Source: an uncultured Actinomycetota bacterium
Lineage (GTDB): Bacteria > Actinomycetota > Actinomycetes > Mycobacteriales > SCTD01
Assembly (NCBI GenBank): GCA_963761695.1
Contig: CAVXIB010000010.1
Coordinates: 69,559-133,558 of the forward strand
Length of the DNA stretch: 64,000 bases
Direction: 5' to 3'
Shown: positions 50,356 to 63,897 of the stretch, in pieces
How positions within the stretch are numbered: position 1 is the first letter of the stretch
How the letters are laid out: the number at the start of each line of letters is the position of its first letter
Position numbers and translations under genes: made by a program
Notes under the pieces: model-generated
Told to the model about the DNA's origin: nothing
Database searches by the model: none
What the model saw: the letters and a program-made list of their open reading frames with translations, nothing else

Positions 50356-50358
50356 GGG

Positions 50359-50811
50359 TCAGGCGCCCTCGGCGGCCGCGACGGCGTCGGCGGGGGAGGC
50401 GGTCCCCGCGACGACGGCCGCCACCGCGGGCAGGTACATGGCGGCCGTGGTCAGGGCGTCGCGGACGAGCCGGGCCAGGAGCGGACCGGTCGGCTGCTGC
50501 AGCTGCAGGTCCAGGCTCGCTCTCGTGCGCACCTCGCCGTCATCGAGGTCCAGCTCGACCGTGACGCCGAGCAGACCCCAGTTGGCCCGGGCGGCGACCT
50601 GCGCGACGTCGGCCCGCCGGGCCTGCGGCACGACGTCGTCCGCGACCGCGTAGACGAGCAGCGCCTCGTCCTCCTCGTCCACGACGACGGCGACGTGGAG
50701 CACCTCGTCGCCGACCTCGAACGCCCCGCGCAGGACACCCGCCTCCGGGTCGCGCTCGAGGTCGAGGTCCGCACTGGTCAGCAGGTCGGCGACCTCGTCG
50801 AACCGGCTCAT
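50359..50811 (-). CDS. YbjN-like (type III secretion chaperone-fold) protein
   Basis: A 150-aa acidic protein (...FEVGDEVLHVAVVVDEEDEALLVYAVADDVV...ANWGLLGVTVELDLDDGEV...). It lies 3 nt upstream of the ATPase gene. Confidence 0.55.
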   Translation of the reverse strand: MSRFDEVADLLTSADLDLERDPEAGVLRGAFEVGDEVLHVAVVVDEEDEALLVYAVADDVVPQARRADVAQVAARANWGLLGVTVELDLDDGEVRTRASLDLQLQQPTGPLLARLVRDALTTAAMYLPAVAAVVAGTASPADAVAAAEGA

Positions 50812-50824
50812 GCCGGCACTCCGG

Positions 50825-52567
50825 TCACGCCCGTACCGGCTTGCGCTTCATCAGTCCGGCGCCGACCAGCGCCTCCTCCAGCCGCTGCTCCCGGTCCGCC
50901 TGGTCGCCGGGGTTGCGGCGCTTCGGCCGTCTCGGCGCAGGTCCGGCGACGACGGGCGCCGCGGCCGGCACGACGGGGGCGGGAGGCGGGTCGGCAGGCA
51001 GCGCCAGGGGGGTGAGCTTGTGGCTCGCTCCGCTCCTGGCCATGTCCTGGAACTCGGCCGCCTTCTTGAGGTAGCCACCGTGTGCGGTGTCTGCTGTGGC
51101 GTCGGCGTAGGCGGCGTCGTCCCAGTCCGTGACCAGCTTGCCGTCCTTCTTCAGGCCCTTGACGTGCTTCTTGACATGCTGGAAGCGCCGGACGGCGTCC
51201 TTCACCGTGGCGTCGTCGAGCCGCGCCGGATCGTCGGCGCGACCTTGGACCACCTTGCGGTACTGCTTGCTCCGCATCCCCAGCAACCGTTCGGCGGTAC
51301 CCGCGTCGACCTGCTGGGGCAGGCCGAAGTAGCTGTCCCGCTCCTCGTTGAGCTCCTTGGGGTCGTACCGCCCGCCCTGCCCGGCGAACCGGCGGTCGAA
51401 CGCCTGGTCGTTGTCGATGCCCCTGGCCCTGCCGGTCTTGGTGTTGATCATGATGTTACCGCCGTGCCGGTCGCTCTGGCCGGTGATGGCGTCCTGCAGC
51501 TGCAGGTCAGCCAGCGACTTCTGCGTGGCAGGGTTCTTGAAGTCGTGCTCCAGGACGTGCTCGCTCCCCTTCCACATCAGCGTGCCGTCGACCCGCTTGA
51601 CGGTGCCCTCCGGGTACATCCACTCCTCGCCCTCGGCGATCGGCGTGTCGTAGTTGCCCTGCACCAGGGGTGCGTGTCCGGCGCCGAGGTCCGCCGATAC
51701 CGAACCCTTCTCCGTGCCGTGCACGGCGAACTCCTCGCGCGCGAGCTGACGAAAGCCCAGCGCGCGGTCGACGCGGGAGGACGCCACAGCCCGGGCCGAG
51801 TTGCCCTCCTGGCTGAACGCCGACTGACCATCGGGCTTGAAGTAGCCCTTCCGGCTCCCGCCGGCGATCCGGCTCTTGTAGGCCACCTTGTGCACAGGGT
51901 TGACCGAGCCTCCGTCACCGCGCTGCATCGAGACCAGGTCCGCGGAGGTCTTCCCCCACTTCTCACCGTCGGTGGTGTCGTCCGACTCGGGGGTCGGAAG
52001 CGGTGTCGGTGCGGGCGGTAACGGCTGGGCCTGGGCGGGGGAACCCTTCCTCCCGGCCTTGCGCTTGATCCAGTCCAACGGACCCAGCTGGAGCGCGGCG
52101 GCCGGTGCCGCGCTCACGGCGATCTCCCCCCCGCTCACCGCCCGCGCCTCGGCTGCGCCTGCCTCGCGCTCGGACGCGTCGTGCGTGGCGCTCACCGCCC
52201 TGGCGGCGGCACTCCCGCCACGGTTCTGCAGCACGTGGGTGACCTCGTGAGCGACCTCGTGCAGGGCGGGCTGGTCGTTGCCGAAGACGACCGTGTCCTG
52301 CAGCGTCGCGGCACCCGCACCGATCCGGACCATCTCGTCCCGGGCTCCGGTGCGCACGGTCACGTCCGACAGGTCCGCGCCGAACGAGCGCTCGAGCCTC
52401 GCGCGGAACGGCAGCGTCGAGGGCCGGCCCAGGCGCTGCAGCGCCGCGGTGCCACCGGCCACCAGCGTTCGGGCCGCCCGCTCCGGGGCCGACACTTCGG
52501 TCTGCCGGTCTGCAGGCGTTGTCCGCCGGGATGGCGCTTCGTGGTCGTGCTGGACCTGCTGCTGCAC
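50825..52567 (-). CDS. DUF4157 (HExxH) domain fused to a PI3/PI4-kinase-like catalytic domain; candidate CIS cargo/effector
   Basis: GTG 52567 lies 6 nt after GGGGGAGG. The DUF4157 part is LPFRARLERSFGADLSDVTVRTG...HEVAHEVTHVLQ. The kinase-like part has KGYFKPDG, GQSDRHGGNIMIN and GIDNDQAF (DRHxxN catalytic loop plus IDND in the DFG position). G+C is lower than in the neighbouring genes. Confidence 0.65.
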   Translation of the reverse strand: MQQQVQHDHEAPSRRTTPADRQTEVSAPERAARTLVAGGTAALQRLGRPSTLPFRARLERSFGADLSDVTVRTGARDEMVRIGAGAATLQDTVVFGNDQPALHEVAHEVTHVLQNRGGSAAARAVSATHDASEREAGAAEARAVSGGEIAVSAAPAAALQLGPLDWIKRKAGRKGSPAQAQPLPPAPTPLPTPESDDTTDGEKWGKTSADLVSMQRGDGGSVNPVHKVAYKSRIAGGSRKGYFKPDGQSAFSQEGNSARAVASSRVDRALGFRQLAREEFAVHGTEKGSVSADLGAGHAPLVQGNYDTPIAEGEEWMYPEGTVKRVDGTLMWKGSEHVLEHDFKNPATQKSLADLQLQDAITGQSDRHGGNIMINTKTGRARGIDNDQAFDRRFAGQGGRYDPKELNEERDSYFGLPQQVDAGTAERLLGMRSKQYRKVVQGRADDPARLDDATVKDAVRRFQHVKKHVKGLKKDGKLVTDWDDAAYADATADTAHGGYLKKAAEFQDMARSGASHKLTPLALPADPPPAPVVPAAAPVVAGPAPRRPKRRNPGDQADREQRLEEALVGAGLMKRKPVRA

Positions 52568-52833
52568 GGCAGACCTCCCCCTCGTGTTGAGCTGCGAGCC
52601 TCCCACTGCCGAGCCCCTCCGGCTCCTGCCTCTTGGGGCGGTACGGGTGGCGCACCTCCGCGACGCCGTCGTCCAGCTGGGCCGGTCAACGGTGTCCTCG
52701 CTCGCCACCCCCAACGAGGCGCACTGCCCCGACGGGCAGGTCCGACCGCCCCTTCCGACGCACCGCCGGTCGTGCGCCCGGGCCGTCCCCCTCGACAGTC
52801 TGGGCGCACACCAGACATCCCGAGGGGGCCGCA

Positions 52834-54387
52834 ATGCCGCAGTACCTGTCGCCGGGCGTGTTCGTCGAGGAGCTGCCGCCCGCAGCCCGGCCGATCGAGG
52901 GCGTCAGCACCTCGGTCGCCGCCTTCGTGGGCCTGGCGGCCTCCGGACCGTTCGACACGCCCGTGCTCGTCACCAACTGGACCCAGTTCTGCAAGAGCTT
53001 CGGCGACTTCGTCGAGGGCAGCTACCTGGCGCACGCCGTCTACGGCTTCTTCACCAACGGCGGGTCCACCTGCTACGTGGTCCGCGTCGGGGCGGCGGCC
53101 GCGAAGGCCGAGCCCGCGGAGCTGCCGCCGGCCGCCGCCGAGCTCAACGGCACCGACAAGACGCCGGCCTACACGGTCCGAGCCCTGGCGGCGGGCGCCG
53201 AGGGCAGCACGCTCAGCGTCGACGTCAACCCGGCACCGGCGACCGAGGGCGGCGACGAGACCTACACCGTCGTCGTGCGTCGCGGCACCGAGGCCGTGGA
53301 GACCTTCGAGGGCCTCACGACCAAGCGCGGCAGGACCAACGTCGCGACCACGGTCAACGCCCAGTCCAAGCTGATCAAGATCGAAGAGGTCGCCAAGGCC
53401 GGGACGATCGAGAAGCTCGCTCCCGGCAGCACCGCCCTGGCGGCCCCCGCCTCGGCGCTGATCCCCGCGCAGGCTGCGGTCGGCCCGGACGACTACGTCG
53501 GCTCGGCCGCGAACCGCACCGGCTTCGGCGTCCTCGAGACGCTCGAGGACGTCACCATGGTCGCGGTCCCGGACCTGGTCGCCGCGCTGCAGCAGGGAGC
53601 CATCGACCTCGAGGGCTTCAAGGCCGTGCAGCTCGGGATCATCAACCACTGCGAGCTCATGGGCGACCGGATGGCCATCCTGGACCCGCCCCCCGGGCTC
53701 GGCGCGCAGCAGGTCAAGGACTGGCGGACCGACGTCGCCGGCTACGACAGCAAGTACGCGGCGCTCTACTGGCCGCAGGTCAAGGTCTTCGACCCGCTGT
53801 CCGGTCGCAACGTCTTCATCCCGCCGTCGGGCCACCTCGCGGGCATGTGGAGCCGCAGCGACGCCGAGCGCGGCGTGCACAAGGCTCCCGCCAACGAGGT
53901 GCTCCGCGGCGTCGTCGACGTCGAGGCGACCCTCACCCGCGGCGAGCACGACCAGCTCAACCCGATCGGCGTCAACGTCATCAAGTCCTTCCCGGGCCGC
54001 GGCATCCGCGTCTGGGGCGCCCGCACCCTGTCGAGCGACCCGGGCTGGCGCTACATCAACGTCCGTCGCCTGTTCTCCTTCGTCGAGGACTCGCTGCTGG
54101 GTTCCATGGACTGGGTCGTGTTCGAGCCGAACGACCGCGACCTGTGGGCCCGCATCTCGCGCGAGGTCAACGCGTTCCTCTACCGCCTCTGGCAGTCCGG
54201 CGCCCTGTTCGGGAACTCCCCGGACGAGGCGTACTACGTGCGCTGCAACGACGAGACGAACCCCTCCGAGAACATCGAGGCGGGTCTGGTGACCACCGAG
54301 ATCGGCCTGGCCGCGGTCAAGCCGGCCGAGTTCGTCGTCTTCCGCCTGGCCAGCCTGCCGACCGGCACGGCGTCGGTCTCCGAGTGA
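52834..54387 (+). CDS. Contractile tail sheath protein
   Basis: MPQYLSPGVFVEE...STSVAAFVG at the N-terminus and NPIGVNVIKSFPGRGIRVWGARTL in the C-terminal sheath domain. 517 aa. Confidence 0.95.
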   Translation: MPQYLSPGVFVEELPPAARPIEGVSTSVAAFVGLAASGPFDTPVLVTNWTQFCKSFGDFVEGSYLAHAVYGFFTNGGSTCYVVRVGAAAAKAEPAELPPAAAELNGTDKTPAYTVRALAAGAEGSTLSVDVNPAPATEGGDETYTVVVRRGTEAVETFEGLTTKRGRTNVATTVNAQSKLIKIEEVAKAGTIEKLAPGSTALAAPASALIPAQAAVGPDDYVGSAANRTGFGVLETLEDVTMVAVPDLVAALQQGAIDLEGFKAVQLGIINHCELMGDRMAILDPPPGLGAQQVKDWRTDVAGYDSKYAALYWPQVKVFDPLSGRNVFIPPSGHLAGMWSRSDAERGVHKAPANEVLRGVVDVEATLTRGEHDQLNPIGVNVIKSFPGRGIRVWGARTLSSDPGWRYINVRRLFSFVEDSLLGSMDWVVFEPNDRDLWARISREVNAFLYRLWQSGALFGNSPDEAYYVRCNDETNPSENIEAGLVTTEIGLAAVKPAEFVVFRLASLPTGTASVSE

Positions 54388-54415: not shown

Positions 54416-54895
54416 ATGACCACGCCCGCCGTCGGGATGAACCCGACCCAGAACGTCGCCGTCACCACCTGGTACCTCGACGCGAGCGGCACGTCGCTCG
54501 CGGCCTTCAAGACGATCTCCGGCATCAGCCTGGAGCTCAACGTCGTGGAGATGCAGCACACGATCAAGGGCGGCAAGACGTCCATCATGAAGTCGGTCAA
54601 CGCCGGCGGTGTGAAGCCCGGGAAGCTCACCTGCACCCGCGGCCTGATCCTCGACGACTCCATGTGGACCTGGATCCAGGACGCCATCGACGGCAACATG
54701 GCCAAGGCCCGCAAGAACATCACCATCATCCTGTACAACGCGGACGGCAGCGAGAGCAAGCGGTACGAGTTCCGCAACGCGTTCCCGTCCGGATGGTCGC
54801 TCGGTGACCTCGACGCGGCTGGCACCGACGCCCTCATGGAGACCCTCACGATCGAGCACGAGGGCTTCAGCCTCAAGGGCAAGAACGGCTTCTAG
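54416..54895 (+). CDS. Tail tube protein (T4 gp19 / Afp1-like)
   Basis: A 159-aa protein directly after the sheath gene. WYLDASG...FKTISGISLELNVVEM...YEFRNAFPSGWSLGDLDA is the tube-family pattern. Confidence 0.9.
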   Translation: MTTPAVGMNPTQNVAVTTWYLDASGTSLAAFKTISGISLELNVVEMQHTIKGGKTSIMKSVNAGGVKPGKLTCTRGLILDDSMWTWIQDAIDGNMAKARKNITIILYNADGSESKRYEFRNAFPSGWSLGDLDAAGTDALMETLTIEHEGFSLKGKNGF

Positions 54896-54901
54896 GCCAC
54901 C

Positions 54902-55360
54902 GTGGAGCGGACCGTGCGAGGACCGTCGGCGCTGCTGCCGCCGCGGCCCCCCGAGCACAGCGACCAGCAGCCGCACGGTCCGCAGGAGGGCCTCAGCACG
55001 GAGTTCTCGTTCGTGCTGCCCCGGGGGTACGTCGACGAGGACGGCCGGGTGCACCGCGAGGGCGTCATGCGCCTCGCGACCGCACGCGATGAGATCGCCC
55101 CGCTCCGCGATCCCCGGGTGCAGCAGAACGAGGCGTACCTGACCGTGCTGCTGCTCGCCCGCGTGGTCGAGCGGCTGGGCAGCCTCGACGTCGTCGATCC
55201 CCGGGTGGTCGAGGGCCTGTTCGCCGTCGACCTCGCTTTCCTGCAGGACCTGTACCGGCGGGTCAACCAGGAGGGCCACACGCAGGCCCTCGTCACCTGC
55301 CCGTCCTGCGAGCACGAGTTCACGGTGGACGTGGCGGGGAGCGGCCAGGGGGGGTCCTGA
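54902..55360 (+). CDS. CIS/phage tail assembly protein (chaperone-position gene) with C-terminal CxxC
   Basis: EFSFVLPRGYVDEDGRVHREGVMRLATARDEIAPLRDPRVQQNEAYLTVLLLARVV...VTCPSCEHEF. It sits between the tube and the tape-measure-position gene. Confidence 0.65.
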   Translation: MERTVRGPSALLPPRPPEHSDQQPHGPQEGLSTEFSFVLPRGYVDEDGRVHREGVMRLATARDEIAPLRDPRVQQNEAYLTVLLLARVVERLGSLDVVDPRVVEGLFAVDLAFLQDLYRRVNQEGHTQALVTCPSCEHEFTVDVAGSGQGGS

Positions 55361-55527
55361 CGTACGCGGCCGACCGCCTGCTCGAGGAGGTCGCGTACGT
55401 CGCCTACCACTTCCACTGGCCTCTGGCGGACATCCTCGACCTCGAGCACCCGCTGCGTCAGCAGTTCATCCAGCACATCGGTCGACTGAACGGCGCCGCG
55501 GGAGGTGAGCAGGGGTGGGACGGCTGA
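55357..55527 (+). CDS. DUF6760-like small protein in the -1 frame, no canonical start codon (CTG start or -1 frameshift extension of 54902-55360)
   Basis: The translation LTYAADRLLEEVAYVAYHFHWPLADILDLEHPLRQQFIQHIGRLNG... matches the small conserved CIS protein that normally begins MTY... There is no ATG/GTG/TTG in this frame in the 24 codons upstream. The GGGGGGG run at 55348-55354 is in X_XXY_YYZ phase. Confidence 0.5.
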   Translation: MTYAADRLLEEVAYVAYHFHWPLADILDLEHPLRQQFIQHIGRLNGAAGGEQGWDG

Positions 55528-58500
55528 GGGACGCCCTGCGTGGTCGTTCGACGTCGGTGCTGCTCGCCGGCGCGGGGTCACAGGCAGCGCTCCCGTCCGT
55601 GCCGGGCGAGGCCGGGAGCGCCGTCCCGCCGGCGGTCCTGACGACCGCCGCTCCGCGCGCACGGCAGGCCTCGGTGCGCGCGGCCTGGCGCGACGCCGCA
55701 CCCCTCGTCCCCCTGCTCGCGCAGCCCCTGGCCTGGGAGGCGGGCGCCGGGTTCACGCGCTCGCTCGCCACCGCGCCGCACCCTGCCGCGTGCTCTGGCC
55801 CCGCTCGGCCACGAGCTGCGCCAGGATGCCCCGCGCGGTCTGCTCGTCGGCGTCGCGAGGTCGCACGCGCCGGGCCTGGTCCCCGACGCGCTGCCCCTGC
55901 CGCGTCAGCGTGCAGGCCTCGACGGCGACACTGCACCCCGCGACACCGCATTCGGCGACACCGCATTCGGCGACACCGTGCCGACCAGCGTCGCGCCGCC
56001 CGCACCTGCCCGCACCGGCGACCGGCTGCTGCGCCGGGTCCGGCAGCGGCGGGCGACGCCGTCACCGACCGACGTCGTGCCTGCCGCCCCCGGCCGGGAC
56101 GAGCGGGCGCCCGTCGCCGCACCGGAGAGCCGCGCCGTCGCGCCTGCAGCAGCAGCCCTCGACGCACCCGCGGGCGAGGCGGTGCCGGCGCTGCCGCAGC
56201 CGTGGGCTGCCCGTCGCCTGTCCCTCACCCGTTCCACTGCCGGTGCTACTGCCGGTGCCGCTGCCACTGCTATGGCCGGTGCTACTGCCGCTGCCGCTGC
56301 CGCTGCCGCTGCCGGTGCCACTGCCGGTGCCGGTGCCGGTGCCGGTGCCGGACCGACGGTGCCCGTCGGCCGCGTGACGCTGCCGACGGCCCGCCGCCTG
56401 CCCAGCGTCGCGGCCGAGCTGCCCCGGGTCGGCGGGCCGGCCGACGTGGCGGGACCGCGCCGCGCGAGCGGACCCGCGAGCCCGCTCGGCCCGGGCCTAC
56501 CTCTCCCGGTCGCACCGCTGCTGCCCTCACCGGAAGGGACCCCCGCCGACAGCCGCACGGCCCCGGCCGAGGCGACCACGGCGCCACCGCAGCCGGCCCC
56601 GGCAGCCGGCCCGACGGCGCCACCCGTGGAGCGCGGGGCGCCGCCGCGCGCAGGTCGTGGTCCCGAGTCTGCGACCCCCGCCGTCCCGTCGCCCCTTCCT
56701 CCTGCCGTCGAGACCCCTCGTCGACCGGGTCCGGGGCGCAGTCGGCTGGGGGCACCCCTGCGCGGAGCGACGCCGCCGTCACCTGCACCTGCGACTGCGG
56801 CTGCGGCTGCCTGCTCCTGCCCCTGACGCCGACGCCTACGGCGACGGCAGACCCGCAGACCGCCGCCACGAATGGCCCCTCGACGGTGGCGCACCAGGTC
56901 CCCACCCGGACACCAGCTGCCCCCGACCCGGCCACGCTGCCGCAGCGCCCTCCGGGCGAGGGACCTCCCCCCGCCGAGGCGGTACCGGTTCCGTCCGGCA
57001 CGCATCCGCCGCCGACGCCGACGCCGACGTCCTCCAGCAGCATCTCGCCGGTCGAGCGGTCCCCGCTCGCACCGGCCCGCGGCGTCTCCGGACCCGTCAC
57101 TGCCGACGAGGCACACCCCACGTCACTGATGACAGCACCGCCGGTCGAGCCCGGGCACGAGGGGCTGCTGCCGCTGGCTGCGTCGACCCCCCTGACGCCT
57201 GCTGGCCTCACCGTCCCGCACGAGGTCGGGCCGCCCTCCGCGGACGGGCTGGTCGACCTGCCGCCGGCCCGCGGCGCACGTGCGGGCTCGCCGGAGGCCC
57301 TCCCGGGAGGGCCTGGCGCGTCGGGAACATCCGTCCCGTCCTCGCTCCCCGGAGCGGGCCCGACCGCCATGCCGGTCGGCCCGGCCGTCGGCCTGCCGCC
57401 GTCCGCCTCGGCACGTCCCACCCCTGGAGGTGCCGACCCTGCAGGTCCTGCCGCCACCCGTCCCGACCCTGCAGGTCCCGTCCTGCCCCTCACGGGAGCC
57501 GGCCCGACCGCACCGGCCGCTCCGCCGTTGTCGACGCCCGTCCCGCAGCTGCCCGTCGGCGAGGGGGATCCGCCGCCGGCCGCCGCCGGCCCGCTGACCC
57601 AGCGGGCGGCCACCCCCCCAGCGCAGCCTGACGAGCCTGGACCCCGACCGCTGTCGCCGACGTCCCCCGCCGCCCTGCCGCTGACGTCCGCCACGCCGCT
57701 GACCGTGACCGACCTGACCTCCCGTCGTCTGTCCGGCCCCGCGTCCGTCCCGGCCGGGCCCCCGTCCGCGCTCCTCCCGAGCCCCGCGCTCCTCCCGAGC
57801 CCCGCGGTCCTCCCGAGCCCCGCGGTCACCCGCGCGCCCCATGCCCCCGTGCCCGATTCCTCCGTGCCCCCGCCCGCCCCGCTGTCCGGCGACGGCGGCG
57901 CGCGCCCGACCACGATCCCCGACCTCACCCGTGCCTCGAGCACCGGCCCGTCGGCCCCGACCTTCGACCGGCATGAGGCCGGGTCCGGGCCGAAGGACCG
58001 TTCCGGCGTGCCCGCGCAGCAGCCGCTCGAGCAGTCGCTCGTGACGCGGCGCCCCGCCCCGGCAGCCCCGGCCTCCCCGGTGACGCGCCCGTCGACCACC
58101 CCCGACGCCGGGCCTCCCGCGCCCCCCGCCGGCGCCCCCGAGCCGGTCTCCGCGGACGGGGCCACCGAGCCGCCCGCCACCGCGCGGCCCCTGGTGGGGG
58201 CCGAGCGCACGTCCACCCTGCCCTCGGACATGGACGCGGGCCACCCTGTTCCCGGGGCCGGTCCCGCGGCACTCGTCCCGGCCGACCTGGTGCCCCTCGT
58301 GCTTCGCCGACCCGGCCAGCAGGGCGACCAGCCCCCGGCACCGGGGCCGCTGCCCGCCGACGCCGGGGGCATCTCACGCGGAGCAGCCGACCGGCCGATG
58401 GCCGCCCCAGGCACGCCGCCCGTTCGCACGCCCGTGACCGCTCCTGCCGCGTCCGCGACGCCGGTGGCGCCGTCCGTCCAGCCGGGGCCGGTGAGCATGC

Positions 58501-60158
58501 CGAGCCTGCTGCCGACCGTCGGCGTGACACCCGCCTCGGTCCTGCGGCCACCGACCGACGTCCCGCCGGCAGCACCGGCCCAGCCCGGGAGTCGGCCGGT
58601 CGGCCAGCTGCCGTCCTCGCGCGCTGCGGTCAGTGCCGCCCTGCCGCACGCGCCGCAGCCGCCCCTGACCGACCGCGCCGCCGCACGCGAACCGGACTCC
58701 CGACCGCAGGCCCCACCGCCGCAGCCCGCCCGCGCCCTCGACGACGTCGCGCCCGGCGAGCCCGCCACGAGCCGACGGGCGACGGCACTCCCCTCGCCGG
58801 TCGACGGTGTCCGCCCGCTCGTCGGCACCCGTGAGGTAGCAGCACCACGGAGCGGCGAAGAGGTGGTCCCGTCGGACCGCAGCGCCGCGACGACGTCGGC
58901 CCAGCCCCTCCCGGGAGCAGCCGCGGCGCCGGGCGCCCACCACGACCTGGCGGGAGCCACCGACGCTCCCCGACCGGCAGCCGCCCGACCCTCGGCGCCT
59001 GCCCTGCAGGCTCCCGGCGCCCGCAACGACAACGACAACGGCACGTCTGCGGTCGCCGCACCGACTGCGCGTCCACTCGCCGGGCGGCCCCGGACGCGCC
59101 TCGGCGCACCCCTCACCGAGGCCGGCGCGCGCCCGTCGCCCTCGTCCGACCCTGCCCACCCCCGGACCCTCCTGCCGCCGACCGGCCAGGGAGCGCTCCC
59201 TGCAGACGCCGACCAGGCGGCCCGCCCGGTGTCGACCGTCCCGAACCGGGACGACGCCGTCCGGTCCCCCACCGCCCTGCAGCCCGCCCGGGCAGGAGTG
59301 CCCTACGAGGTGCGCCCCTCCAGCCTGGCAGGGCCCACGCAGGACCCTGGCTCCGGGCCGGCCGCCGAGCAGCGGGCCGTCGAGCGGGCGGTCCAGACGG
59401 TGGAGCGGCGCACCGGCCGGCCGCTGCCCCCGGTGCTGCTGGACCGGAGCACGGCGAGCGCTGCGGCCCTGCGCCCGGCGTCCGCCCTCGCCGCCGCCAC
59501 CGGTCAGCGGGTCGTGCTCCCCCTCGCGGCCGGCCCGCTCACCGGTCCACGCGCCGCCGGGCTGCTCGCCCACGAGCTCACGCACCTCGCGCAGCAGGCG
59601 GCCGGGCGCCTGGAGGCGACCCCGGAACAGGACGAGCAGCAGGCCCGGTCGGCCGAGGCTGCCGCCGGGGGTCGGCCGGCGACTCGCGTGCTCACCGCCA
59701 CCCGTCCGGCGGCGGACCGCAGCCCTGCGCCTACTCCTGCCCTGCCGCACCAGCAGGGACGTGAGACGGAGCACGAGGGCGGTGACGCCGGATCACCGGT
59801 GCGCCGCGCCGCGGCCGTCGCTGCCCAGCTGGAGCGGGCGACGCGCGCACCGGCACCAGCCGCAACCCGTGCACCAGCACCCGCACCAGCACCCGCACCA
59901 GCACCCGCACCCGCACCTGCACCCGCACCCGCACCCGCGGCCGCGCCCGTGCAGCTCGCCGAGTCCGACACCTCCCGGCGACCGGCCGCGCCGTCCTCAC
60001 CGGCACCAGCCGCGCCGGTCGACCCCCTGGCCGCCCTCACTCCCGCCTCCCTCGACCACCTCGCGGCCCGCCTCTACGGACGACTGCGCAGCCAGCTCCG
60101 CAGCGAGCTGCTCGCCGACCGCGACCGCACCTCCGACCTCGCCGACCTGTGGACCTGA
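55515..60158 (+). CDS. Giant Pro/Ala-rich protein with internal DUF4157 (HExxH) domain in the tape-measure position; middle ~1 kb reads better in another frame
   Basis: GTG 55515 follows GGAGG. The DUF4157-like core is ...VERRTGRPLPPVLLDRS...GQRVVLPL...LLAHELTHLAQQ. The conserved-looking C-terminus is LDHLAARLYGRLRSQLRSELLADRDRTSDLADLW. Between about 55780 and 56810, frame +1 has higher GC3 and natural sequence. Confidence 0.65.
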   Translation: MGRLRDALRGRSTSVLLAGAGSQAALPSVPGEAGSAVPPAVLTTAAPRARQASVRAAWRDAAPLVPLLAQPLAWEAGAGFTRSLATAPHPAACSGPARPRAAPGCPARSARRRREVARAGPGPRRAAPAASACRPRRRHCTPRHRIRRHRIRRHRADQRRAARTCPHRRPAAAPGPAAAGDAVTDRRRACRPRPGRAGARRRTGEPRRRACSSSPRRTRGRGGAGAAAAVGCPSPVPHPFHCRCYCRCRCHCYGRCYCRCRCRCRCRCHCRCRCRCRCRTDGARRPRDAADGPPPAQRRGRAAPGRRAGRRGGTAPRERTREPARPGPTSPGRTAAALTGRDPRRQPHGPGRGDHGATAAGPGSRPDGATRGARGAAARRSWSRVCDPRRPVAPSSCRRDPSSTGSGAQSAGGTPARSDAAVTCTCDCGCGCLLLPLTPTPTATADPQTAATNGPSTVAHQVPTRTPAAPDPATLPQRPPGEGPPPAEAVPVPSGTHPPPTPTPTSSSSISPVERSPLAPARGVSGPVTADEAHPTSLMTAPPVEPGHEGLLPLAASTPLTPAGLTVPHEVGPPSADGLVDLPPARGARAGSPEALPGGPGASGTSVPSSLPGAGPTAMPVGPAVGLPPSASARPTPGGADPAGPAATRPDPAGPVLPLTGAGPTAPAAPPLSTPVPQLPVGEGDPPPAAAGPLTQRAATPPAQPDEPGPRPLSPTSPAALPLTSATPLTVTDLTSRRLSGPASVPAGPPSALLPSPALLPSPAVLPSPAVTRAPHAPVPDSSVPPPAPLSGDGGARPTTIPDLTRASSTGPSAPTFDRHEAGSGPKDRSGVPAQQPLEQSLVTRRPAPAAPASPVTRPSTTPDAGPPAPPAGAPEPVSADGATEPPATARPLVGAERTSTLPSDMDAGHPVPGAGPAALVPADLVPLVLRRPGQQGDQPPAPGPLPADAGGISRGAADRPMAAPGTPPVRTPVTAPAASATPVAPSVQPGPVSMPSLLPTVGVTPASVLRPPTDVPPAAPAQPGSRPVGQLPSSRAAVSAALPHAPQPPLTDRAAAREPDSRPQAPPPQPARALDDVAPGEPATSRRATALPSPVDGVRPLVGTREVAAPRSGEEVVPSDRSAATTSAQPLPGAAAAPGAHHDLAGATDAPRPAAARPSAPALQAPGARNDNDNGTSAVAAPTARPLAGRPRTRLGAPLTEAGARPSPSSDPAHPRTLLPPTGQGALPADADQAARPVSTVPNRDDAVRSPTALQPARAGVPYEVRPSSLAGPTQDPGSGPAAEQRAVERAVQTVERRTGRPLPPVLLDRSTASAAALRPASALAAATGQRVVLPLAAGPLTGPRAAGLLAHELTHLAQQAAGRLEATPEQDEQQARSAEAAAGGRPATRVLTATRPAADRSPAPTPALPHQQGRETEHEGGDAGSPVRRAAAVAAQLERATRAPAPAATRAPAPAPAPAPAPAPAPAPAPAPAAAPVQLAESDTSRRPAAPSSPAPAAPVDPLAALTPASLDHLAARLYGRLRSQLRSELLADRDRTSDLADLWT

Positions 60159-60159
60159 C

Positions 60160-60708
60160 ATGACGATGCCCCAGCAGCGCCCCGCTCCCCCGCCCCCGCC
60201 GCGCCCCACGCTGCCCGCGCCCAAGCCCTTCGGCCGCTACACCAGCGTCCCGCGCCCGACGTCGAGCGACGCGGCCCCGCGGCACATGACGGGCTTCTGG
60301 GTGGTCGTCGACGGCGTCTCCCTGCCGACCTTCACCGAGTGCACCGGCCTGGCCGCCGAGTACGGGGTCGAGCCATGGACCGAGGGCGGCCAGAACGAGT
60401 TCATCCACCAGCTCCCGGGACGGATCTCCTACACACCGGTGAGCCTCACCCGCTACGTCGACGGTGCGAGCGGCGGGCTGGCCGCCTGGTTCAGCAGCGT
60501 CGCCGACATCAGCCAGAAGTACCGCACGGCGCGCATCAGCGCCGTCGACGCCGCCGGCGACCCGGTCGCGCACTGGGACCTCACCGACGTCTTCCCGTCG
60601 AAGTACACCGGGCCCAGCTTCACCGTCGGCGGGACGACCGCCGCCTCCGAGACGCTCGACCTCGTCCACCACGGGTTCGTCTTCGCCTACGACGCGCCGA
60701 GGGGCTGA
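60160..60708 (+). CDS. Second tail tube family protein (gp19/Afp5-like) with Pro-rich N-terminal extension
   Basis: FWVVVDGVSLPTFTECTGLAAEYGVEPWTEGGQNEFIHQLPGRISYTPVSLTRY...HWDLTDVFPSKYTGPSF. An alternative start is the internal ATG before TGFWVVV. Confidence 0.85.
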   Translation: MTMPQQRPAPPPPPRPTLPAPKPFGRYTSVPRPTSSDAAPRHMTGFWVVVDGVSLPTFTECTGLAAEYGVEPWTEGGQNEFIHQLPGRISYTPVSLTRYVDGASGGLAAWFSSVADISQKYRTARISAVDAAGDPVAHWDLTDVFPSKYTGPSFTVGGTTAASETLDLVHHGFVFAYDAPRG

Positions 60709-60709
60709 G

Positions 60710-61384
60710 ATGGCCGCGATCGCCAAGCTCACCCTGCGCCCGAAGACCGGGGGTGGCGCCGCGCTCGAGCTGCCCTACAACCCGGAGTCGCTGACCTTCT
60801 CGGCCAGCGCGACGTTCAACGACGTCCCCGCCGGAGCCGACGTCGCCGGCGTGCAGTTCATGGAGCGCCAGGCCCGGTCGACGTCGGTGACCGCACGTCT
60901 CGACGCCCGGGCCCTGACGCGCAGCGTCGCCGACACGGTGCAGCAGGTGTTCGACTGGCTGGAGCCGACGGAGGAGTCGGTGAAGCGCAACGCGCCGTCG
61001 CCGCCGCTGCTGGACCTGAGCTGGGGCAAGCACTGGTTCGACGTCGTGCTCGAGTCGGCGAGCGCGGAGTTCACCTTGTTCTCCGCCGACGGCGCCCCCA
61101 CCCGCGCGACGGTGATGATGACGCTCAAGGAGGTGCCGCTCAAGGAGAAGCGGCAGAACCCGACGTCGGGGAGCCTCGTGGGCCGCCGCTCGCACCAGGT
61201 GGTCTCGGGCGACAGCCTGCACTCGATCGCCACGGCCGAGTACGGCGACCCGCGGCACTGGCGCGACCTCGCCCTGGCGAACCGCCTGGACGACCCGCTG
61301 GCCCTGCGGCCGGGTACCCGGGTGCTGCTCCCGGACCTCGCCGAGCTGCCCTCCTCGCTGATCCGGACGGTGTCCCCGTGGTGA
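60710..61384 (+). CDS. Tube-initiator-like protein with C-terminal LysM domain (Afp7/Pvc7-like)
   Basis: N-terminal tube-like fold (LELPYNPESLTFSASA...). C-terminal LysM (HQVVSGDSLHSIATAEYGDPRHWRDLALANRLDDPLALRPGTRVLLP). Confidence 0.8.
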   Translation: MAAIAKLTLRPKTGGGAALELPYNPESLTFSASATFNDVPAGADVAGVQFMERQARSTSVTARLDARALTRSVADTVQQVFDWLEPTEESVKRNAPSPPLLDLSWGKHWFDVVLESASAEFTLFSADGAPTRATVMMTLKEVPLKEKRQNPTSGSLVGRRSHQVVSGDSLHSIATAEYGDPRHWRDLALANRLDDPLALRPGTRVLLPDLAELPSSLIRTVSPW

Positions 61385-63090
61385 CCACGGCCGGAACCGA
61401 GCTGGGCCACGAGCCGGTCGTCAAGGTCCTGGGATCGCCGCTGCGCGAGGAGGTCGCGAGCGCCGTCGAGCGGATCGTCGTCGACCTCGCCGTCGGGCTC
61501 CCGGCCAGCGCCACGGTCCACCTGCGCGACCCGGATCTGCGCGCCCTCGGCAACGCCGGGCTCCAGGTCGGGAGCCCCGTGCAGATCGCCCTGAACAGCC
61601 TGGGCGACCCCCGGCACGTCACGCTGTTCGACGGCGAGGTGACGGCTCTGGAGTACGAGTACGACGCCCGGGGCTCGCTGGTGGTCGCGCGCTGCCACGA
61701 CAAGCTCCACCGCCTCACCCGCGGCCGGCGCACCCGCTCGTGGACGCAGACCGACGACGCGAGCGTGGCCCGCGCGGTCCTGTCCGGCGCCGGGCTGCCG
61801 ATCGGGACCGTGGAGGGAGCGACGCTGCGCCACGACCACGTCGCCCAGCTGGACGTGAGCGACTTCGACTTCCTGTCGGCGCGGGCGCGCGAGACGGGCC
61901 GCGTCCTGGTGATGGACGACGGCAAGGCGCACGTCCGGGTCCGCCCGACGACGGCCGGCGGCACACCGGTGGAGCTCGAGGTCGGGCGCGAGCTCGAGCG
62001 CCTGCGGGTGCGGGTGACGAGCGCGGGGCAGGTCAAGGCCGTCACGGTCGACGGCTGGGACCCCGCGACCCAGAAGGCCGTCTCAGGACAGGCGCCGCTG
62101 CAGGGGACGGCCGCGAAGGCGGGGGTCAAGCACGCCTCCCTGGCATCCCGGTTCGGCCCCGCGCCGGCCCACGTCGGCAGCCCCGTGCTGCGGACGGCCG
62201 CGGAGGCGAAGGCGCACGCCGACGGGCTCGCCGTCCGGCTGTCGGACGTGCACGCCGAGGTCGAGGGCGAGTGCGGCGGCGACCCGCGCCTTGTGCCCGG
62301 CGGCGCCGTGAAGATCGTGGGTACGGGCCCGGCCCACGACGGCACCTACGTGCTCAGCCGGGTGCAGCACGTCTCCGACCGGGACGGCTACCGGACGCGG
62401 ATCGAGTGCGCCGGCGGCGAGGACCGCAGCCTGCGCGGGCTGCTGGGGAGCGGACGCCCCGGCGCGCCGACCGGCAGCGGCAACCGTCCCGTACCGGGCG
62501 TGACGGTCGGCGTCGTGACCGACCTGAAGGACCCGACGAGGAAGGGCCGGGTCAAGGTGAAGTTCCCGTGGCTGTCCGGTGAGTACGCCACCGACTGGGC
62601 CCGGGTCGCCGCGCCGGGTGCCGGCAAGGACCGGGGTCTGGCCTGGCTGCCCGAGGTCAACGACGAGGTGCTCGTGGCGTTCGACCACGGCGACACGCGC
62701 ACGCCCTACGTCGTCGGCGGGCTGTGGAGCGCGCGGTCGGCCCCTCCGCTCGCCGCGACCCTCGTCGACGGGACCGGCGCGACGGCCGTCCGGGCGCTGC
62801 GAAGCCGGACCGGGCAGCGCCTGGTGCTGTCGGACGAGACCGGTCGCAGCGGCGCCCTGCTGTCGTCGGGCGACGACAAGATGGTGGTCAGGCTCGACGG
62901 CAGCCAGACCACGGTCACCATCGACAGCAAGGGCAAGGTCGTCGTGTCCGGGAGCCAGGACGTCTCCGTGACCTCGATGTCGCGGCTGCTGCTCGAAGGC
63001 AAGGCGGGCGTCGAGATCAAGGGCGCCACGGTCAAGGTCGACGCGCAGGGGCCGGTGACCGTCAAGGGCGCCGTCATCCAGCTCAACTGA
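61378..63090 (+). CDS. VgrG-like baseplate hub/spike (gpD + gp5 OB-fold + beta-helix)
   Basis: The gpD-like N-terminal half is followed by an OB-fold (GVTVGVVTDLKDPTRKGRVKVKFPWLS...WARVAAPGAGKDRGLAWLPEVNDEVLVAFDHGDTRTPYVVGGLW) and a C-terminal beta-strand repeat region. Confidence 0.9.
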   Translation: MVTTAGTELGHEPVVKVLGSPLREEVASAVERIVVDLAVGLPASATVHLRDPDLRALGNAGLQVGSPVQIALNSLGDPRHVTLFDGEVTALEYEYDARGSLVVARCHDKLHRLTRGRRTRSWTQTDDASVARAVLSGAGLPIGTVEGATLRHDHVAQLDVSDFDFLSARARETGRVLVMDDGKAHVRVRPTTAGGTPVELEVGRELERLRVRVTSAGQVKAVTVDGWDPATQKAVSGQAPLQGTAAKAGVKHASLASRFGPAPAHVGSPVLRTAAEAKAHADGLAVRLSDVHAEVEGECGGDPRLVPGGAVKIVGTGPAHDGTYVLSRVQHVSDRDGYRTRIECAGGEDRSLRGLLGSGRPGAPTGSGNRPVPGVTVGVVTDLKDPTRKGRVKVKFPWLSGEYATDWARVAAPGAGKDRGLAWLPEVNDEVLVAFDHGDTRTPYVVGGLWSARSAPPLAATLVDGTGATAVRALRSRTGQRLVLSDETGRSGALLSSGDDKMVVRLDGSQTTVTIDSKGKVVVSGSQDVSVTSMSRLLLEGKAGVEIKGATVKVDAQGPVTVKGAVIQLN

Positions 63091-63103
63091 GGAGGACGGG
63101 ACC

Positions 63104-63487
63104 GTGGGAACACCTGCCGCCGTCATGGGCGACCGCATCACCGGCATCTGCCCGAACCACCTCATCCCAGGACCGCTGGGGGTGCCGGTCCCGGCCGGCC
63201 CGCTCCCGTTCTCGGCACCGGTCGTCGTCGGTGTCGTGCCGACCGTCCTCATCACCGGCAAGGCGGCGGTCACCGCGACCTGCTCGGGCCTGAACACCCC
63301 GCCGCACGTCGGCCTGCACCCGAGCGACCCGTTCCTCGGCCCGCCCGTGCAGATCGGACGCGTGCTGGTGGGCAGCCCCACGGTGCTCGCGGGCGGGAAG
63401 CCGCTGGCCCGCCTCGGGTCGAGCGTCACCTGCTGCGTCGCACCGGGCGTGCTCGCGGCGTCGGCGTCCACGGTGCTGGTCGCGTGA
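63104..63487 (+). CDS. PAAR-like spike-tip protein
   Basis: A 127-aa protein immediately after the spike gene. AAVMGDRITGIC...VLITGKAAV...VLVGSPTVLAGGKPLARLGSSVTCC is PAAR-like. Confidence 0.75.
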   Translation: MGTPAAVMGDRITGICPNHLIPGPLGVPVPAGPLPFSAPVVVGVVPTVLITGKAAVTATCSGLNTPPHVGLHPSDPFLGPPVQIGRVLVGSPTVLAGGKPLARLGSSVTCCVAPGVLAASASTVLVA

Positions 63488-63897
63488 GCACGCCGCAGAA
63501 CGGCTCGCCCTTCACCGGCCGGGGCTGGGCGTTCCCGCTGCGCACGACGGCGAGCGGCGGCATCGCGCTGGTCGACGGCGACACCGAGATCGCCGAGGCG
63601 ATCCGCCTGGTGCTCGGCACCGCCAAGGGCGAGCGGCCGATGCGACCGGAGTTCGGCTGCGGCATCCACGACCTCGTCTTCGCCCCGACCGACCCCGCCC
63701 TGCTCGGTCAGATCGAGGCCGAGGTGCGGGCCTCGCTGCGCCGCTGGGAACCGCGGATCCTCGTCACCGAGGTGGCCGCCAGCCCGGACGGCGACGACAG
63801 CGGAACCGTCTGGATCACCGTCCGCTACCTGGTGCTCGACACCGACGACCCCCGCAACCTGGTCTTCCCCTTCTACTCACTGCCTCCGGAGGAGTGA
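63484..63897 (+). CDS. GPW/gp25 baseplate wedge protein
   Basis: GRGWAFPL...IALVDGDTEIAEAIRLVLGTAKGERPMRPEFGCGIHDLVF is the canonical gp25 core. Start overlaps the PAAR gene stop by 4 nt (GTGA). Confidence 0.9.
   Translation: MSTPQNGSPFTGRGWAFPLRTTASGGIALVDGDTEIAEAIRLVLGTAKGERPMRPEFGCGIHDLVFAPTDPALLGQIEAEVRASLRRWEPRILVTEVAASPDGDDSGTVWITVRYLVLDTDDPRNLVFPFYSLPPEE

What the first reader, a model, noticed from the sequence alone, without database searches (positions are those of the whole stretch)
55515..60158. 1547-codon Pro/Ala-rich DUF4157 protein in the tape-measure position, with a ~1-kb internal segment that codes in another frame
**Seen:**
- One open frame spans 4.6 kb between the chaperone pair and the second tube gene. 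It is mostly low-complexity P/A/S/T.
- It has recurring R-P-L-V-G-x-R ... L-P motifs.
- It contains a DUF4157-type block (LLAHELTHLAQQ) about 250 aa from the end, (AP)n repeats, and a conserved-looking C-terminal helix (LDHLAARLYGRLRSQLRSELLADRDR).
- Between about 55780 and 56810 the annotated frame gives implausible Arg/Cys strings (CRCRCRCRCHCRCR).
- In the same interval the +1 frame (track ORF 55978-56826 and upstream) gives natural sequence. It includes RSRLGAPL, which recurs later in the main frame as RTRLGAPL.
- GC3 by hand count over 56401-56460 is 19/20 in the +1 frame versus 14/20 in the annotated frame.

**Inference:** either two compensating indels (assembly error or real), or three separate genes. 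A disordered, DUF4157-containing tape-measure analogue of this size would itself be unusual.
Basis: partly seen in the sequence, partly recalled or inferred. Interest (0 to 1): 0.6.

Follow-up and report, generated by a model that had tools for sequence, protein, structure and literature searches.

The report
Injection-system gene broken by assembly errors
This is one real gene for a very long, floppy proline/alanine-rich protein that sits in the "tape-measure" slot of a phage-tail-like injection machine, and the 1-kb stretch that reads in another frame is almost certainly two single-base errors in an error-prone long-read genome assembly, not biology.

Summary
The 4.6-kb ORF 55515-60158 is open. 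It carries a DUF4157/eCIS-core domain and a conserved C-terminal helix. From about 55779 to 56810 the real coding frame is +1.

The cause is very probably assembly error.
- A clean same-genus assembly (G001) reads straight across the first junction in one frame. G000 has one extra base there.
- G000 shows about 12-18 frameshift-like frame switches per 100 kb. Two complete genomes and G001 show 0-0.5.
- hemA and the locus's own AAA ATPase are also frame-split in this window.
- The sister genome G002 is broken in the same gene. It is a Nanopore-only Microflora Danica MAG.
- The second junction (56761-56826) has no orthologue support. No reads could be inspected.

"Three genes" is rejected. At least 14 relatives in cleaner assemblies have one ORF running from the N-terminal motifs to the C-terminal helix.

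The gene belongs to a conserved family annotated only as "eCIS core domain-containing protein". The family always lies between a conserved 152-aa protein plus DUF6760 pair and the second tube gene. Members are usually 530-920 aa, so this one is unusually long. The closest studied relative in kind is Tme of Streptomyces davawensis. A tape-measure role remains inference. Interest is low.

The parts
55515..55778 (+). Segment 1 of the gene, annotated frame (f0). It runs from the start codon GTG through '...AAWRDAAPLVPLLAQPLAWEAGAGFTRSLATA'.
   Evidence: The start context GTGGGACGGCTG (MGRL.D.L) is conserved in G001 and G002. Both the generic and the family-trained codon models prefer f0 here.
55771..55790 (+). 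Junction 1. G000 has one extra base relative to the clean same-genus assembly G001, and this moves the reading frame to +1.
   Evidence: DNA alignment. G001 reads FTRTLATQRSLPRALAPLGHELR in one frame and stays in that frame for 220 aa to its contig end. G002 lacks one base about 15 nt further on, an indel of opposite sign.
55779..56810 (+). Segment 2. True coding is in the +1 frame, with codons starting at 55780. It contains LPRALAPLGHELRQDAPRGLLVG (55795-), GDRLLRRVRQRR (56020-56046) and RSRLGAPL (56737-56760).
   Evidence: tblastn of intact homologues hits f1 at 55786-55926. Family-model Viterbi scan. Amino-acid composition. The motifs match G001 and the wider family.
56234..56351 (+). (CTGCCG)x19 tandem array. 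It reads CRCR in f0, an Ala-rich AGATAAAA string in f1, and (P-L/P-V)n in f2. The frame inside the array is unresolved.
   Evidence: Tandem Repeats Finder. The Viterbi scan switches to f2 here only at low switching penalty. G001 has an Ala/Pro/Ser-rich stretch at the equivalent place, which mildly favours f1.
56761..56826 (+). Junction 2 zone. The reading returns from +1 to f0 somewhere after the RSRLGAPL motif and before the f1 stop codon at 56824-56826. The exact base is unknown.
   Evidence: The Viterbi switch falls at 56810/56811. Sequence inspected. No clean orthologue covers this part, because G001's contigs end inside the gene.
56811..60158 (+). Segment 3, frame f0. It holds a long P/A/T/S-rich low-complexity region, the DUF4157 domain, the (AP)n repeat, the C-terminal helix and the stop codon.
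59391..59606 (+). eCIS core (DUF4157) domain with an intact HExxH motif (HELTH, about 59571-59585).
   Evidence: Pfam PF13699, E 5.9e-8. tblastn against the G040 homologue, 2e-9. H, E, H, QQ and downstream E residues are invariant in the family alignment. The AF2 model has pLDDT 83-94 over this domain.
59871..59949 (+). (GCACCC)x13 array encoding (AP)n. It uses the rare GCA codon, so f0 scores poorly on codon usage here, but f0 is still the right frame.
   Evidence: Clean G001 reads APAPAP...APAVQLA continuous with its C-terminal helix in one frame.
60042..60155 (+). Conserved C-terminal helix LDHLAARLYGRLRSQLRSELLADRDRTSDLADLWT. This is the signature of the family.
   Evidence: Alignments. 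A back-translated pattern of this helix found 17 loci in public genomes. The AF2 model gives a helix at residues 293-329 with pLDDT 87-93.
54902..55527 (+). Upstream pair that always precedes the family gene: a 152-aa protein (54902-55360) and a DUF6760 small protein (55354-55527).
   Evidence: tblastn synteny in 9 loci. The 152-aa protein is 64-74% identical across phyla. DUF6760 by Pfam, E 1.6e-7.
60160..61384 (+). Downstream partners: a second gp19-type tube gene (60160-60708) and a CIS_tube+LysM hub gene (about 60704-61384). VgrG, PAAR and gp25 follow.
   Evidence: Pfam. Synteny.

Best explanation
Window 55515-60158 is a single gene.

**What it encodes**
- The product is about 1546 aa and almost entirely low-complexity (A 21%, P 19.5%). 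It has only 1 Lys, 3 Ile, 4 Phe, 2 Tyr and no Cys.
- It belongs to a family found in contractile-injection-system (CIS) loci.
- The family shares N-terminal short motifs (W..L.PL, F..SL, LAPLGH..AP.GLV, RLL.R, RR.LGAPL).
- These are followed by a variable disordered Pro/Ala-rich body and an optional DUF4157/eCIS-core zincin-like domain with HExxH.
- An invariant C-terminal helix (L..LA.RLY.RLR..LR.ELL.DRER) closes the protein.

**The frame excursion**
- The +1-frame reading over 55779-56810 comes from two single-base indels. One is an extra base near 55771-55790. The other is a compensating indel within 56761-56826.
- They are most probably consensus errors of an unpolished long-read metagenome assembly.
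- The long ORF stays open only because stop codons are rare in every frame at 80% GC.

**Function (inferred, not shown)**
- The protein occupies the slot that a tape-measure protein has in phage tails: after the tube gene and a chaperone-like pair, and before the tube initiator, LysM hub and spike.
- I infer that it is loaded into the tube lumen during assembly.
- The C-terminal helix would dock on the hub/spike complex, and the disordered chain would extend up the lumen.
- The protein would be expelled on contraction, as shown for the DUF4157 protein Tme of Streptomyces davawensis.
- Whether it also sets tube length is open.
For: **Frame path**
- Family-trained Viterbi scan gives f0, then f1, then f0 with switches at 55778/55779 and 56810/56811.
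- tblastn of intact homologues places the N motif in f1 at 55786-55926, DUF4157 in f0 at 59391-59672, and the C helix in f0 at 60051-60149.
- Composition and Cys distribution agree.

**Junction 1 is one extra base**
- Shown by the G000/G001/G002 DNA alignment.
- G001 stays in one frame for 220 aa from the start codon.

**The assembly is error-ridden**
- 396 of 1507 same-strand frame switches in G000 have the upstream frame's stop more than 90 nt beyond the switch.
- Rates per 100 kb of coding sequence are 17-18 in G000, 6-18 in G002 and 12.6 in G007. They are 0 and 0.5 in the complete genomes G040 and G028, and 0 in G001.
- The events are spread evenly over all contigs and are not linked to GC content.
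- At about 12 per 100 kb of sequence, roughly 0.6 events are expected in a 4.6-kb gene, and P(>=2) is about 0.11.

**Independent proof in this window**
- The hemA GlutR_dimer profile is split between two frames, positions 2-42 and 43-99.
- A G000-specific extra base at about 24487, relative to G002, explains this.
- In the CIS AAA ATPase, the WHD and AAA domains lie in different frames.

**Provenance of the sister genomes**
- G002 is CAVXHI01, MFD02581.bin. MFD long-read MAGs are Nanopore-only, assembled with Flye and polished with one Medaka round (PMC12313526).
- G002 and G007 are also frame-broken in this gene.
- At least 14 relatives have one intact ORF.

**Family and slot**
- Synteny is identical in 9 loci from Actinomycetota, Dormibacterota and Acidobacteriota.
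- The N-terminal profile finds 111 cluster representatives.
- The AF2 model is confident only over DUF4157 and the C helix.
- Tme is the precedent for a large disordered DUF4157 protein in this slot that co-purifies with the spike and tube initiator (PMC11126660).
Against: - Error versus real mutation is therefore argued from rates and relatives, not seen directly.
- G000's own sequencing platform is not known to me. It is inferred from the contig count, the error signature and its sister MAG.
- Junction 2 has no clean orthologue, and its position is known only to about +/-30 nt.
- Neither junction lies in a long homopolymer, the classic Nanopore error site.
- G000 and G002 are both broken within about 15 nt of each other at junction 1, with opposite signs. 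That is somewhat coincidental for random errors.
- The function is entirely inferred. The protein has no predicted helical ruler region, no TM segment (best 19-aa Kyte-Doolittle window is 1.5), no Pfam tape-measure match and no PDB relative.
Confidence: 0.8

Rival explanations
1. The two indels are real. The gene would then be a recently inactivated pseudogene in this population, or the product would carry about 344 residues of out-of-frame Arg/Cys-rich sequence.
For: No reads were available to exclude it. Three related MAGs (G000, G002, G007) all have frame breaks in this gene. Low-complexity repeat genes mutate quickly.
Against: All three MAGs carry frameshift-like breaks genome-wide, whereas clean assemblies have none. 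The breaks include hemA and the locus's ATPase. The breaks in G000 and G002 are different events with opposite signs. The +1 segment still has family motifs, family-like composition and no stop codon. The rest of the CIS locus looks functional.
Confidence: 0.1
2. There are two or three separate genes. For example, an N-terminal gene ending at the f1 stop codon (56824-56826), and a second gene starting in f0 shortly after.
For: The +1 ORF has its own stop codon at 56826. Junction 2 has no orthologue evidence. G002 has an in-frame stop codon in mid-gene.
Against: The conserved N-terminal block is continuous across junction 1 in G001. In every clean relative the N motifs and the C helix lie in one ORF of 611-1633 aa. 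Synteny shows one gene in this slot. The low-complexity composition runs unchanged across junction 2. G002 is itself an error-prone assembly.
Confidence: 0.05
3. Programmed ribosomal frameshifting or another form of recoding joins the frames.
For: Phage tail-assembly genes next to tape-measure genes are known to use programmed frameshifts. This point rests on general knowledge.
Against: The shift lies inside a conserved protein block that relatives encode in one frame. No shared slippery site exists, because G000 and G002 differ in position and sign. Two compensating programmed shifts 1 kb apart have no precedent known to me.
Confidence: 0.02

Closest known systems
Tme (BN159_7576), the tape-measure-related effector of the Streptomyces davawensis CIS (Nagakubo et al. 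2024, PMC11126660)
   Same: It is the largest ORF of its CIS cluster and lies just upstream of the tube-initiator, hub and spike genes. It contains DUF4157 and is about 70% predicted disordered. It is proposed to be loaded like a tape measure and ejected.
   Different: Tme is 2247 aa with DUF4157 near the N-terminus. It has predicted TM helices and coiled coils, remote similarity to phage tape-measure proteins, and a C-terminal EndA-like nuclease. The protein here has DUF4157 about 250 aa from the C-terminus. It has no TM-like segment and no enzymatic C-terminal domain, and it ends in a family-specific helix. Sequence homology to Tme could not be tested.
DUF4157 / eCIS-core-domain cargo proteins (Cgo1 and Cgo2 of AlgoCIS; eCIS-associated toxins; Geller 2021 PMC8213781; Xu 2022 PMC8894135; PROCIS preprint 10.64898/2026.05.27.728243)
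   Same: The architecture is a disordered N-terminal region followed by a DUF4157 domain with HExxH. The genes are encoded in CIS loci, and Cgo1/2 are loaded into the tube lumen.
   Different: In those proteins the disordered N-terminal region is short and a folded effector domain follows DUF4157. Here the disordered region is about 1290 aa and only about 180 aa follow, ending in a single helix. Some family members lack DUF4157 altogether. The gene sits inside the structural operon, not at its 3' end.
Afp14 / Pvc14 / Alg14 (Cis14) tape-measure proteins of lineage-I eCIS
   Same: The role would be analogous by gene order relative to the tube, hub and spike genes. Length is highly variable between relatives.
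   Different: Cis14 proteins have a central alpha-helical ruler. This protein is about 40% Pro plus Ala and has no confident structure outside two small regions. There is no sequence match. Published surveys state that lineage-II and Streptomyces CIS lack an Afp14 homologue (PMC6899500, PMC10066040, PMC12237407).
Indel errors in Nanopore-only metagenome-assembled genomes (Sereika et al. 2022 PMC9262707; MFD-LR catalogue PMC12313526)
   Same: Single-base indels are scattered through coding sequence. They split conserved genes into adjacent frames. They are seen in few-contig MAGs and not in complete genomes or a short-contig MAG of the same genus.
   Different: The two junctions here are not in long homopolymers, and G000's platform is inferred rather than documented.

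Membership tests
Pfam PF13699 eCIS_core (DUF4157) | Profile match above the curated gathering score | tested here: met
   33.2 bits against a cut-off of 22, E 5.9e-8, aa 1293-1364.
Pfam PF13699 eCIS_core (DUF4157) | HExxH zinc-binding motif | tested here: met
   HELTH is present. H, E and H are invariant in the 8-sequence family alignment. The best fold matches are zincins (Wss1, aminopeptidase N) but they are not significant (E 0.34).
Pfam PF13699 eCIS_core (DUF4157) | Encoded in a CIS/eCIS locus | tested here: met
   Sheath, two gp19 tube genes, CIS_tube+LysM, VgrG, PAAR, gp25 and an AAA ATPase flank it.
Conserved 'tape-measure-slot' family (N motifs plus C-terminal helix; annotated only as eCIS core domain-containing protein) | C-terminal helix L..LA.RLY.RLR..LR.ELL.DRER | tested here: met
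   Alignments A1 and A3. A DNA pattern built from the helix retrieved 17 loci.
Conserved 'tape-measure-slot' family (N motifs plus C-terminal helix; annotated only as eCIS core domain-containing protein) | N-terminal motif block (W..L.PL, LAPLGH..AP.GLV) and the RR.LG(L)GAPL motif | tested here: met
   The motifs are present but split between f0 and f1. The very N-terminus (MGRL.D.L) differs from the common MRWPFRR.
Conserved 'tape-measure-slot' family (N motifs plus C-terminal helix; annotated only as eCIS core domain-containing protein) | Synteny: sheath, tube, 152-aa protein, DUF6760, [gene], tube2, tube/LysM, VgrG | tested here: met
   tblastn of the window's neighbouring genes against 9 loci.
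Tme-like effectors (Nagakubo 2024) | Largest ORF of the cluster, immediately upstream of the baseplate and spike genes | tested here: met
Tme-like effectors (Nagakubo 2024) | DUF4157 in the N-terminal region | tested here: not met
   The domain is at aa 1293-1364 of 1547. It lies in the middle or C-terminal half in other family members.
Tme-like effectors (Nagakubo 2024) | Predicted TM helices, and a C-terminal enzymatic (nuclease) domain | tested here: not met
   The best 19-aa hydropathy window is 1.5 and contains prolines. No Pfam domain follows DUF4157. The C-terminus is a single helix.
Tme-like effectors (Nagakubo 2024) | Remote homology to phage tape-measure proteins | tested here: inconclusive
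   No tape-measure family appears in Pfam or NCBIfam at E<=1.
Afp14/Cis14 tape-measure proteins | Sequence or profile similarity to Afp14/gp29, and a central alpha-helical ruler | tested here: not met
   No Pfam hit. The body is Pro/Ala-rich. The AF2 model of the last 330 aa is confident only over DUF4157 and the terminal helix.
Afp14/Cis14 tape-measure proteins | Protein length determines particle length | not testable with these tools
   This needs EM of particles from length variants.
Programmed ribosomal frameshift | The shift site and slippery sequence are conserved in relatives that need the same shift | tested here: not met
   G001 needs no shift. G002 has an indel of opposite sign about 15 nt away.

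The most novel reading that the evidence does not exclude
This family would be the missing lumen scaffold, or length determinant, of lineage-II and actinobacterial contractile injection systems. Those systems are reported to lack an Afp14-type tape measure yet build particles of uniform length (268 nm in S. coelicolor, PMC12237407). The ruler would be intrinsically disordered and proline-rich rather than alpha-helical. It would be anchored by its conserved C-terminal helix and often carry a zincin-like domain. Its 611-1633-aa length range would predict very different particle lengths between species.
Probability: 0.25. Interest if true: 0.6.

Novelty: new member of a known kind. Interest (0 to 1): 0.22.

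Why it matters
**Practical point**
- This MAG, and its sisters G002 and G007, carry roughly one frameshift-like error per 5-8 kb.
- Any frame-based oddity in these genomes (fused genes, start-less ORFs, "overlapping" genes, candidate recoding) must first be treated as a possible artefact.
- In 80% GC DNA an indel does not truncate the ORF. Gene callers will therefore silently emit a protein with a nonsense insert. Here that insert is 344 wrong residues containing every Cys of the annotated protein.

**Biological point**
- The gene belongs to a conserved but uncharacterised family in the tape-measure slot of CIS loci. That family is a reasonable candidate for an open question, namely what fills the tube and sets its length in systems that lack Afp14.
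- This window adds only an unusually long member, not a new principle.

Tried and rejected
- **Generic codon-usage Viterbi (7 states):** it labelled the whole gene 55498-60222 as non-coding, because the composition is too far from ordinary genes. I replaced it with a family-trained three-frame model.
- **Plain GC3 and generic sliding-window scores:** ambiguous in the repeats, and they wrongly disfavour f0 in the (AP)n array. G001 shows that f0 is correct there.
- **The search for homologous proteins on the C-terminal 308 aa:** no hit, because low-complexity words dominated.
- **The search for related loci with C-helix alignments:** A hand-made degenerate DNA pattern worked instead.
- **Metagenome scan with a 23-mer at junction 1:** only a chance hit in a short-chain dehydrogenase, which shares a GFTRSLA motif.
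- **PDB sequence searches:** nothing for the C helix, the C-terminal 308 aa or the 152-aa neighbour. The Foldseek search of the AF2 model gave no significant match.
- **hemA in G001:** the gene is not in that incomplete MAG, so G002 was used instead.
- **rpoB:** intact in G000, so errors do not hit every long gene.
- **An f2 reading ((P-L/P-V)n) of the 56234-56351 array:** considered but left unresolved.
Full report
**1. What is at the coordinates**

The window is 64 kb of contig C10 of a 3.2-Mb, 23-contig, 74% GC genome bin, G000.

Positions 55515-60158 (+) form one 1547-codon open frame inside a contractile-injection-system (CIS) locus. The surrounding genes are:

| Position | Strand | Gene |
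|---|---|---|
| 48384-50135 | − | AAA ATPase |
| 50362-50847 | − | YbjN-like |
| 50828-52903 | − | second DUF4157 protein |
| 52633-54387 | + | sheath |
| 54416-54895 | + | gp19 tube |
| 54902-55360 | + | conserved 152-aa protein |
| 55354-55527 | + | DUF6760 small protein |
| 55515-60158 | + | the big ORF |
| 60160-60708 | + | second gp19 tube |
| ~60704-61384 | + | CIS_tube+LysM |
| 61378-63897 | + | VgrG, PAAR, gp25 |

The ORF lies in a region that reaches 78-83% GC. There all six frames carry ORFs of hundreds of codons, including a 996-aa ORF on the reverse strand. An open frame by itself therefore means little.

**2.

- Pfam PF13699 (eCIS_core, formerly DUF4157) matches aa 1293-1364 above the curated cut-off.
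- The (AP)n repeat is a (GCACCC)x13 array, and the CRCR string is a (CTGCCG)x19 array.
- In 55779-56810 the annotated frame is 25% Arg and 9.6% Cys. The +1 frame is A 25%, P 18%, G 10.5%, R 10%, like the remainder of the protein.
- Along the path f0, then +1, then f0 the protein has no Cys at all.
- A three-frame Viterbi scan was trained on five intact homologues plus the undisputed part of this gene. It returns f0 for 55515-55778, f1 for 55779-56810 and f0 for 56811-60155 at switching penalties of 10 or more.
- tblastn of intact homologues puts the conserved N-terminal motif in f1 (55786-55926). It puts DUF4157 and the C-terminal helix in f0.
In Pro/Ala/Gly/Arg-rich coding sequence, codon positions 1 and 2 are as GC-rich as position 3.

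**3. One gene, not three**

The same-genus genome G001 is a 550-contig bin, titled a Frankiales MAG in the public record. From the conserved start it reads MGRLKDAL…AEWRDLAPLMPLLVRPLAWDAGVGFTRTLATQRSLPRALAPLGHELRRDAPRGLVVG…ERLLRRVRSRR in a single frame for 220 aa, up to its contig end.

G000 encodes the first half of this block in f0 and the second half in f1. The DNA alignment shows one extra base in G000 within GCCACCGCG.

More distant relatives have one ORF containing both the N motifs and the C-terminal helix. Their lengths are:
- 660, 807, 895, 1192 and 1633 aa;
- 611-1001 aa in nine further loci.

**4. Why I call it an assembly artefact**

I built a crude frameshift detector. It is a 7-state codon-usage Viterbi scan. 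It counts direct same-strand frame switches where the upstream frame's stop codon lies more than 90 nt beyond the switch.

| Genome sample | Events per 100 kb coding |
|---|---|
| G000 (two 200-kb contig samples) | 17-18 |
| G002 (few contigs) | 6-18 |
| G007 (few contigs) | 12.6 |
| G040 (complete genome) | 0 |
| G028 (complete genome) | 0.5 |
| G001 | 0 |
| G000, chopped to G001-like pieces | 11 |

Over the whole of G000, 396 of 1507 switches are of this kind. The events are spread evenly over all contigs and are not GC-dependent.

Two events in this very window were verified by homology.
- The hemA dimerisation domain (PF00745) is split, with profile positions 2-42 in one frame and 43-99 in another. 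A G000-specific extra base at about 24487, relative to G002, explains the split.
- The CIS ATPase has its winged-helix domain and its AAA domain in different frames, switching near 49900.

G002 is publicly titled MFD02581.bin. The Microflora Danica long-read MAGs are Nanopore-only, assembled with Flye and polished with one Medaka round (PMC12313526).

G002 and G007 are also frame-broken in this gene, at other places. G002 lacks a base about 15 nt from G000's extra base, has an Arg/Cys junk segment and has one in-frame stop codon. G007 has its C-terminal helix out of frame.

At about 12 detected events per 100 kb of sequence, a 4.6-kb gene expects about 0.6 events. Two or more would occur in about 11% of such genes, so nothing special is needed to explain this case.

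**Caveats**
- G000's platform is inferred.
- Junction 2 (56761-56826) has no clean orthologue, because G001's contigs break inside the gene.
- The frame inside the (CTGCCG)n array is unresolved between f1 (Ala-rich) and f2 ((P-L/P-V)n).

**5. What the gene is**

A degenerate DNA pattern for the C-terminal helix found 17 loci. They come from:
- Actinomycetota: Micromonospora, Actinophytocola, Amycolatopsis, Actinokineospora, Planosporangium, Marmoricola, Pseudonocardiaceae and Acidimicrobiia;
- a Dormibacterota MAG;
- a Terriglobales MAG.

Intact members share the following features:
- MRWPFRR at the N-terminus;
- a W..LPP motif;
- L.PLGH..AP.GLV;
- (N/T)LGQSRRLGLGAPL;
- PVQR-type repeats;
- an optional DUF4157 domain, found in 5 of the 7 members scanned and absent in the two non-actinobacterial members;
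- the helix LDELA.RLYDRLR.RLR.ELLVDRERAGLLTDFR.

The +1-frame RSRLGAPL in this window is this genus's version of the GLGAPL motif, which independently supports f1 up to 56760.

Synteny is invariant: sheath, tube, 152-aa protein (64-74% identical across phyla), DUF6760, [this gene], tube 2 (one or two copies), tube/LysM, VgrG.

A profile of the N-terminal 300 aa finds 111 cluster representatives among 1.84 billion proteins. Most are 530-920 aa and the longest is 1333 aa. Named members are annotated only as DUF4157 or eCIS core domain-containing protein, and they include Streptomyces and Kitasatospora.

An AF2 model of the last 330 aa is confident only over DUF4157 (pLDDT 83-94) and the terminal helix (87-93). 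Its best, non-significant fold matches are minimal zincins. No TM-like segment is predicted.

**6. How it probably works (inference)**

The gene order matches the phage-tail arrangement of tube, chaperones, tape measure and hub.

The published precedent is Tme of S. davawensis. It is a 2247-aa, about 70% disordered DUF4157 protein in the same slot. It co-purifies with the spike and tube initiator and is proposed to be ejected (PMC11126660).

AlgoCIS DUF4157 cargos with disordered N-termini sit in the tube lumen (PMC8894135; the PROCIS preprint).

I therefore infer that the protein is lumen-loaded, docked through its invariant C-terminal helix to the hub/spike complex, and expelled on contraction.

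Papers on lineage-II and Streptomyces CIS state that no Afp14-type tape measure is present (PMC6899500, PMC10066040), although particles are uniform in length (PMC12237407). A ruler role for this family is an attractive but untested idea.

It is not a member of the Afp14 family. It also fails three of the published defining features of Tme-like genes: N-terminal DUF4157, TM helices and a C-terminal nuclease.

**7. Verdict**

The sequence anomaly is real but artefactual. The gene is a long member of a conserved family that is annotated but uncharacterised, within the known class of DUF4157 CIS proteins. Interest is low. The main value is the warning about this assembly.

Noticed in passing
whole genome G000 (and G002, G007): The assembly carries about 12 frameshift-like frame switches per 100 kb (396 in 3.2 Mb), spread evenly over all contigs. 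Two complete genomes and a clean same-genus MAG show 0-0.5 per 100 kb. Any frame-based finding in this genome needs this caveat.
   Followed up: yes
window 23339-26371 (-), break near 24487: hemA (glutamyl-tRNA reductase) has a G000-specific extra base inside its dimerisation domain. The downstream frame then runs on into hemC, giving an artificial 1011-aa hemA-hemC 'fusion' ORF.
   Followed up: yes
window 48387-50358 (-), break near 49900: The CIS AAA ATPase is frame-split. The winged-helix domain (PF22977) lies in the frame of 49747-50358 and the AAA domain in the frame of 48387-50135.
   Followed up: partly
window ~14301, ~15081, ~37971, ~46083: Four further frameshift-like switches were flagged by the codon-usage scan. 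They were not checked by homology. The one near 46083 lies in the NEW3/CARDB-like membrane protein gene.
   Followed up: no
window 50828-52903 (-): A second DUF4157 protein (eCIS_core, E 6.5e-14) has a weak PI3/PI4-kinase-like match. It is divergent from the sheath operon, and a YbjN-like gene (50362-50847) lies downstream of it.
   Followed up: no
window 55344-55365: The sequence CAG GGG GGG TCC TGA CGT ACG at the junction of the 152-aa gene and the DUF6760 gene is identical in G001 (a clean assembly) and G002. This includes the G7 run and CTG in place of ATG. This junction is therefore not an assembly error, whatever its meaning.
   Followed up: partly
window 54902-55360: The 152-aa protein upstream is the most conserved neighbour, 64-74% identical from Actinomycetota to Acidobacteriota and Dormibacterota. 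It matches no Pfam, NCBIfam or PDB entry. Together with DUF6760 it may be the chaperone pair for the big protein.
   Followed up: partly
L013 (G002:C10:103000-113000) and L014 (G007:C10:220500-230500): The orthologous genes in both sister long-read MAGs are also patchworks of frames. G002 has a 1-nt deletion near the N motif, an Arg/Cys junk segment of about 1 kb and an in-frame stop codon. G007 has its C-terminal helix out of frame, so its ORF runs on into the downstream genes.
   Followed up: partly
window 59871-59949: The (AP)n array is encoded with the rare Ala codon GCA (3% of Ala codons genome-wide). Codon-usage methods therefore mis-score a frame that the clean orthologue confirms.
   Followed up: yes
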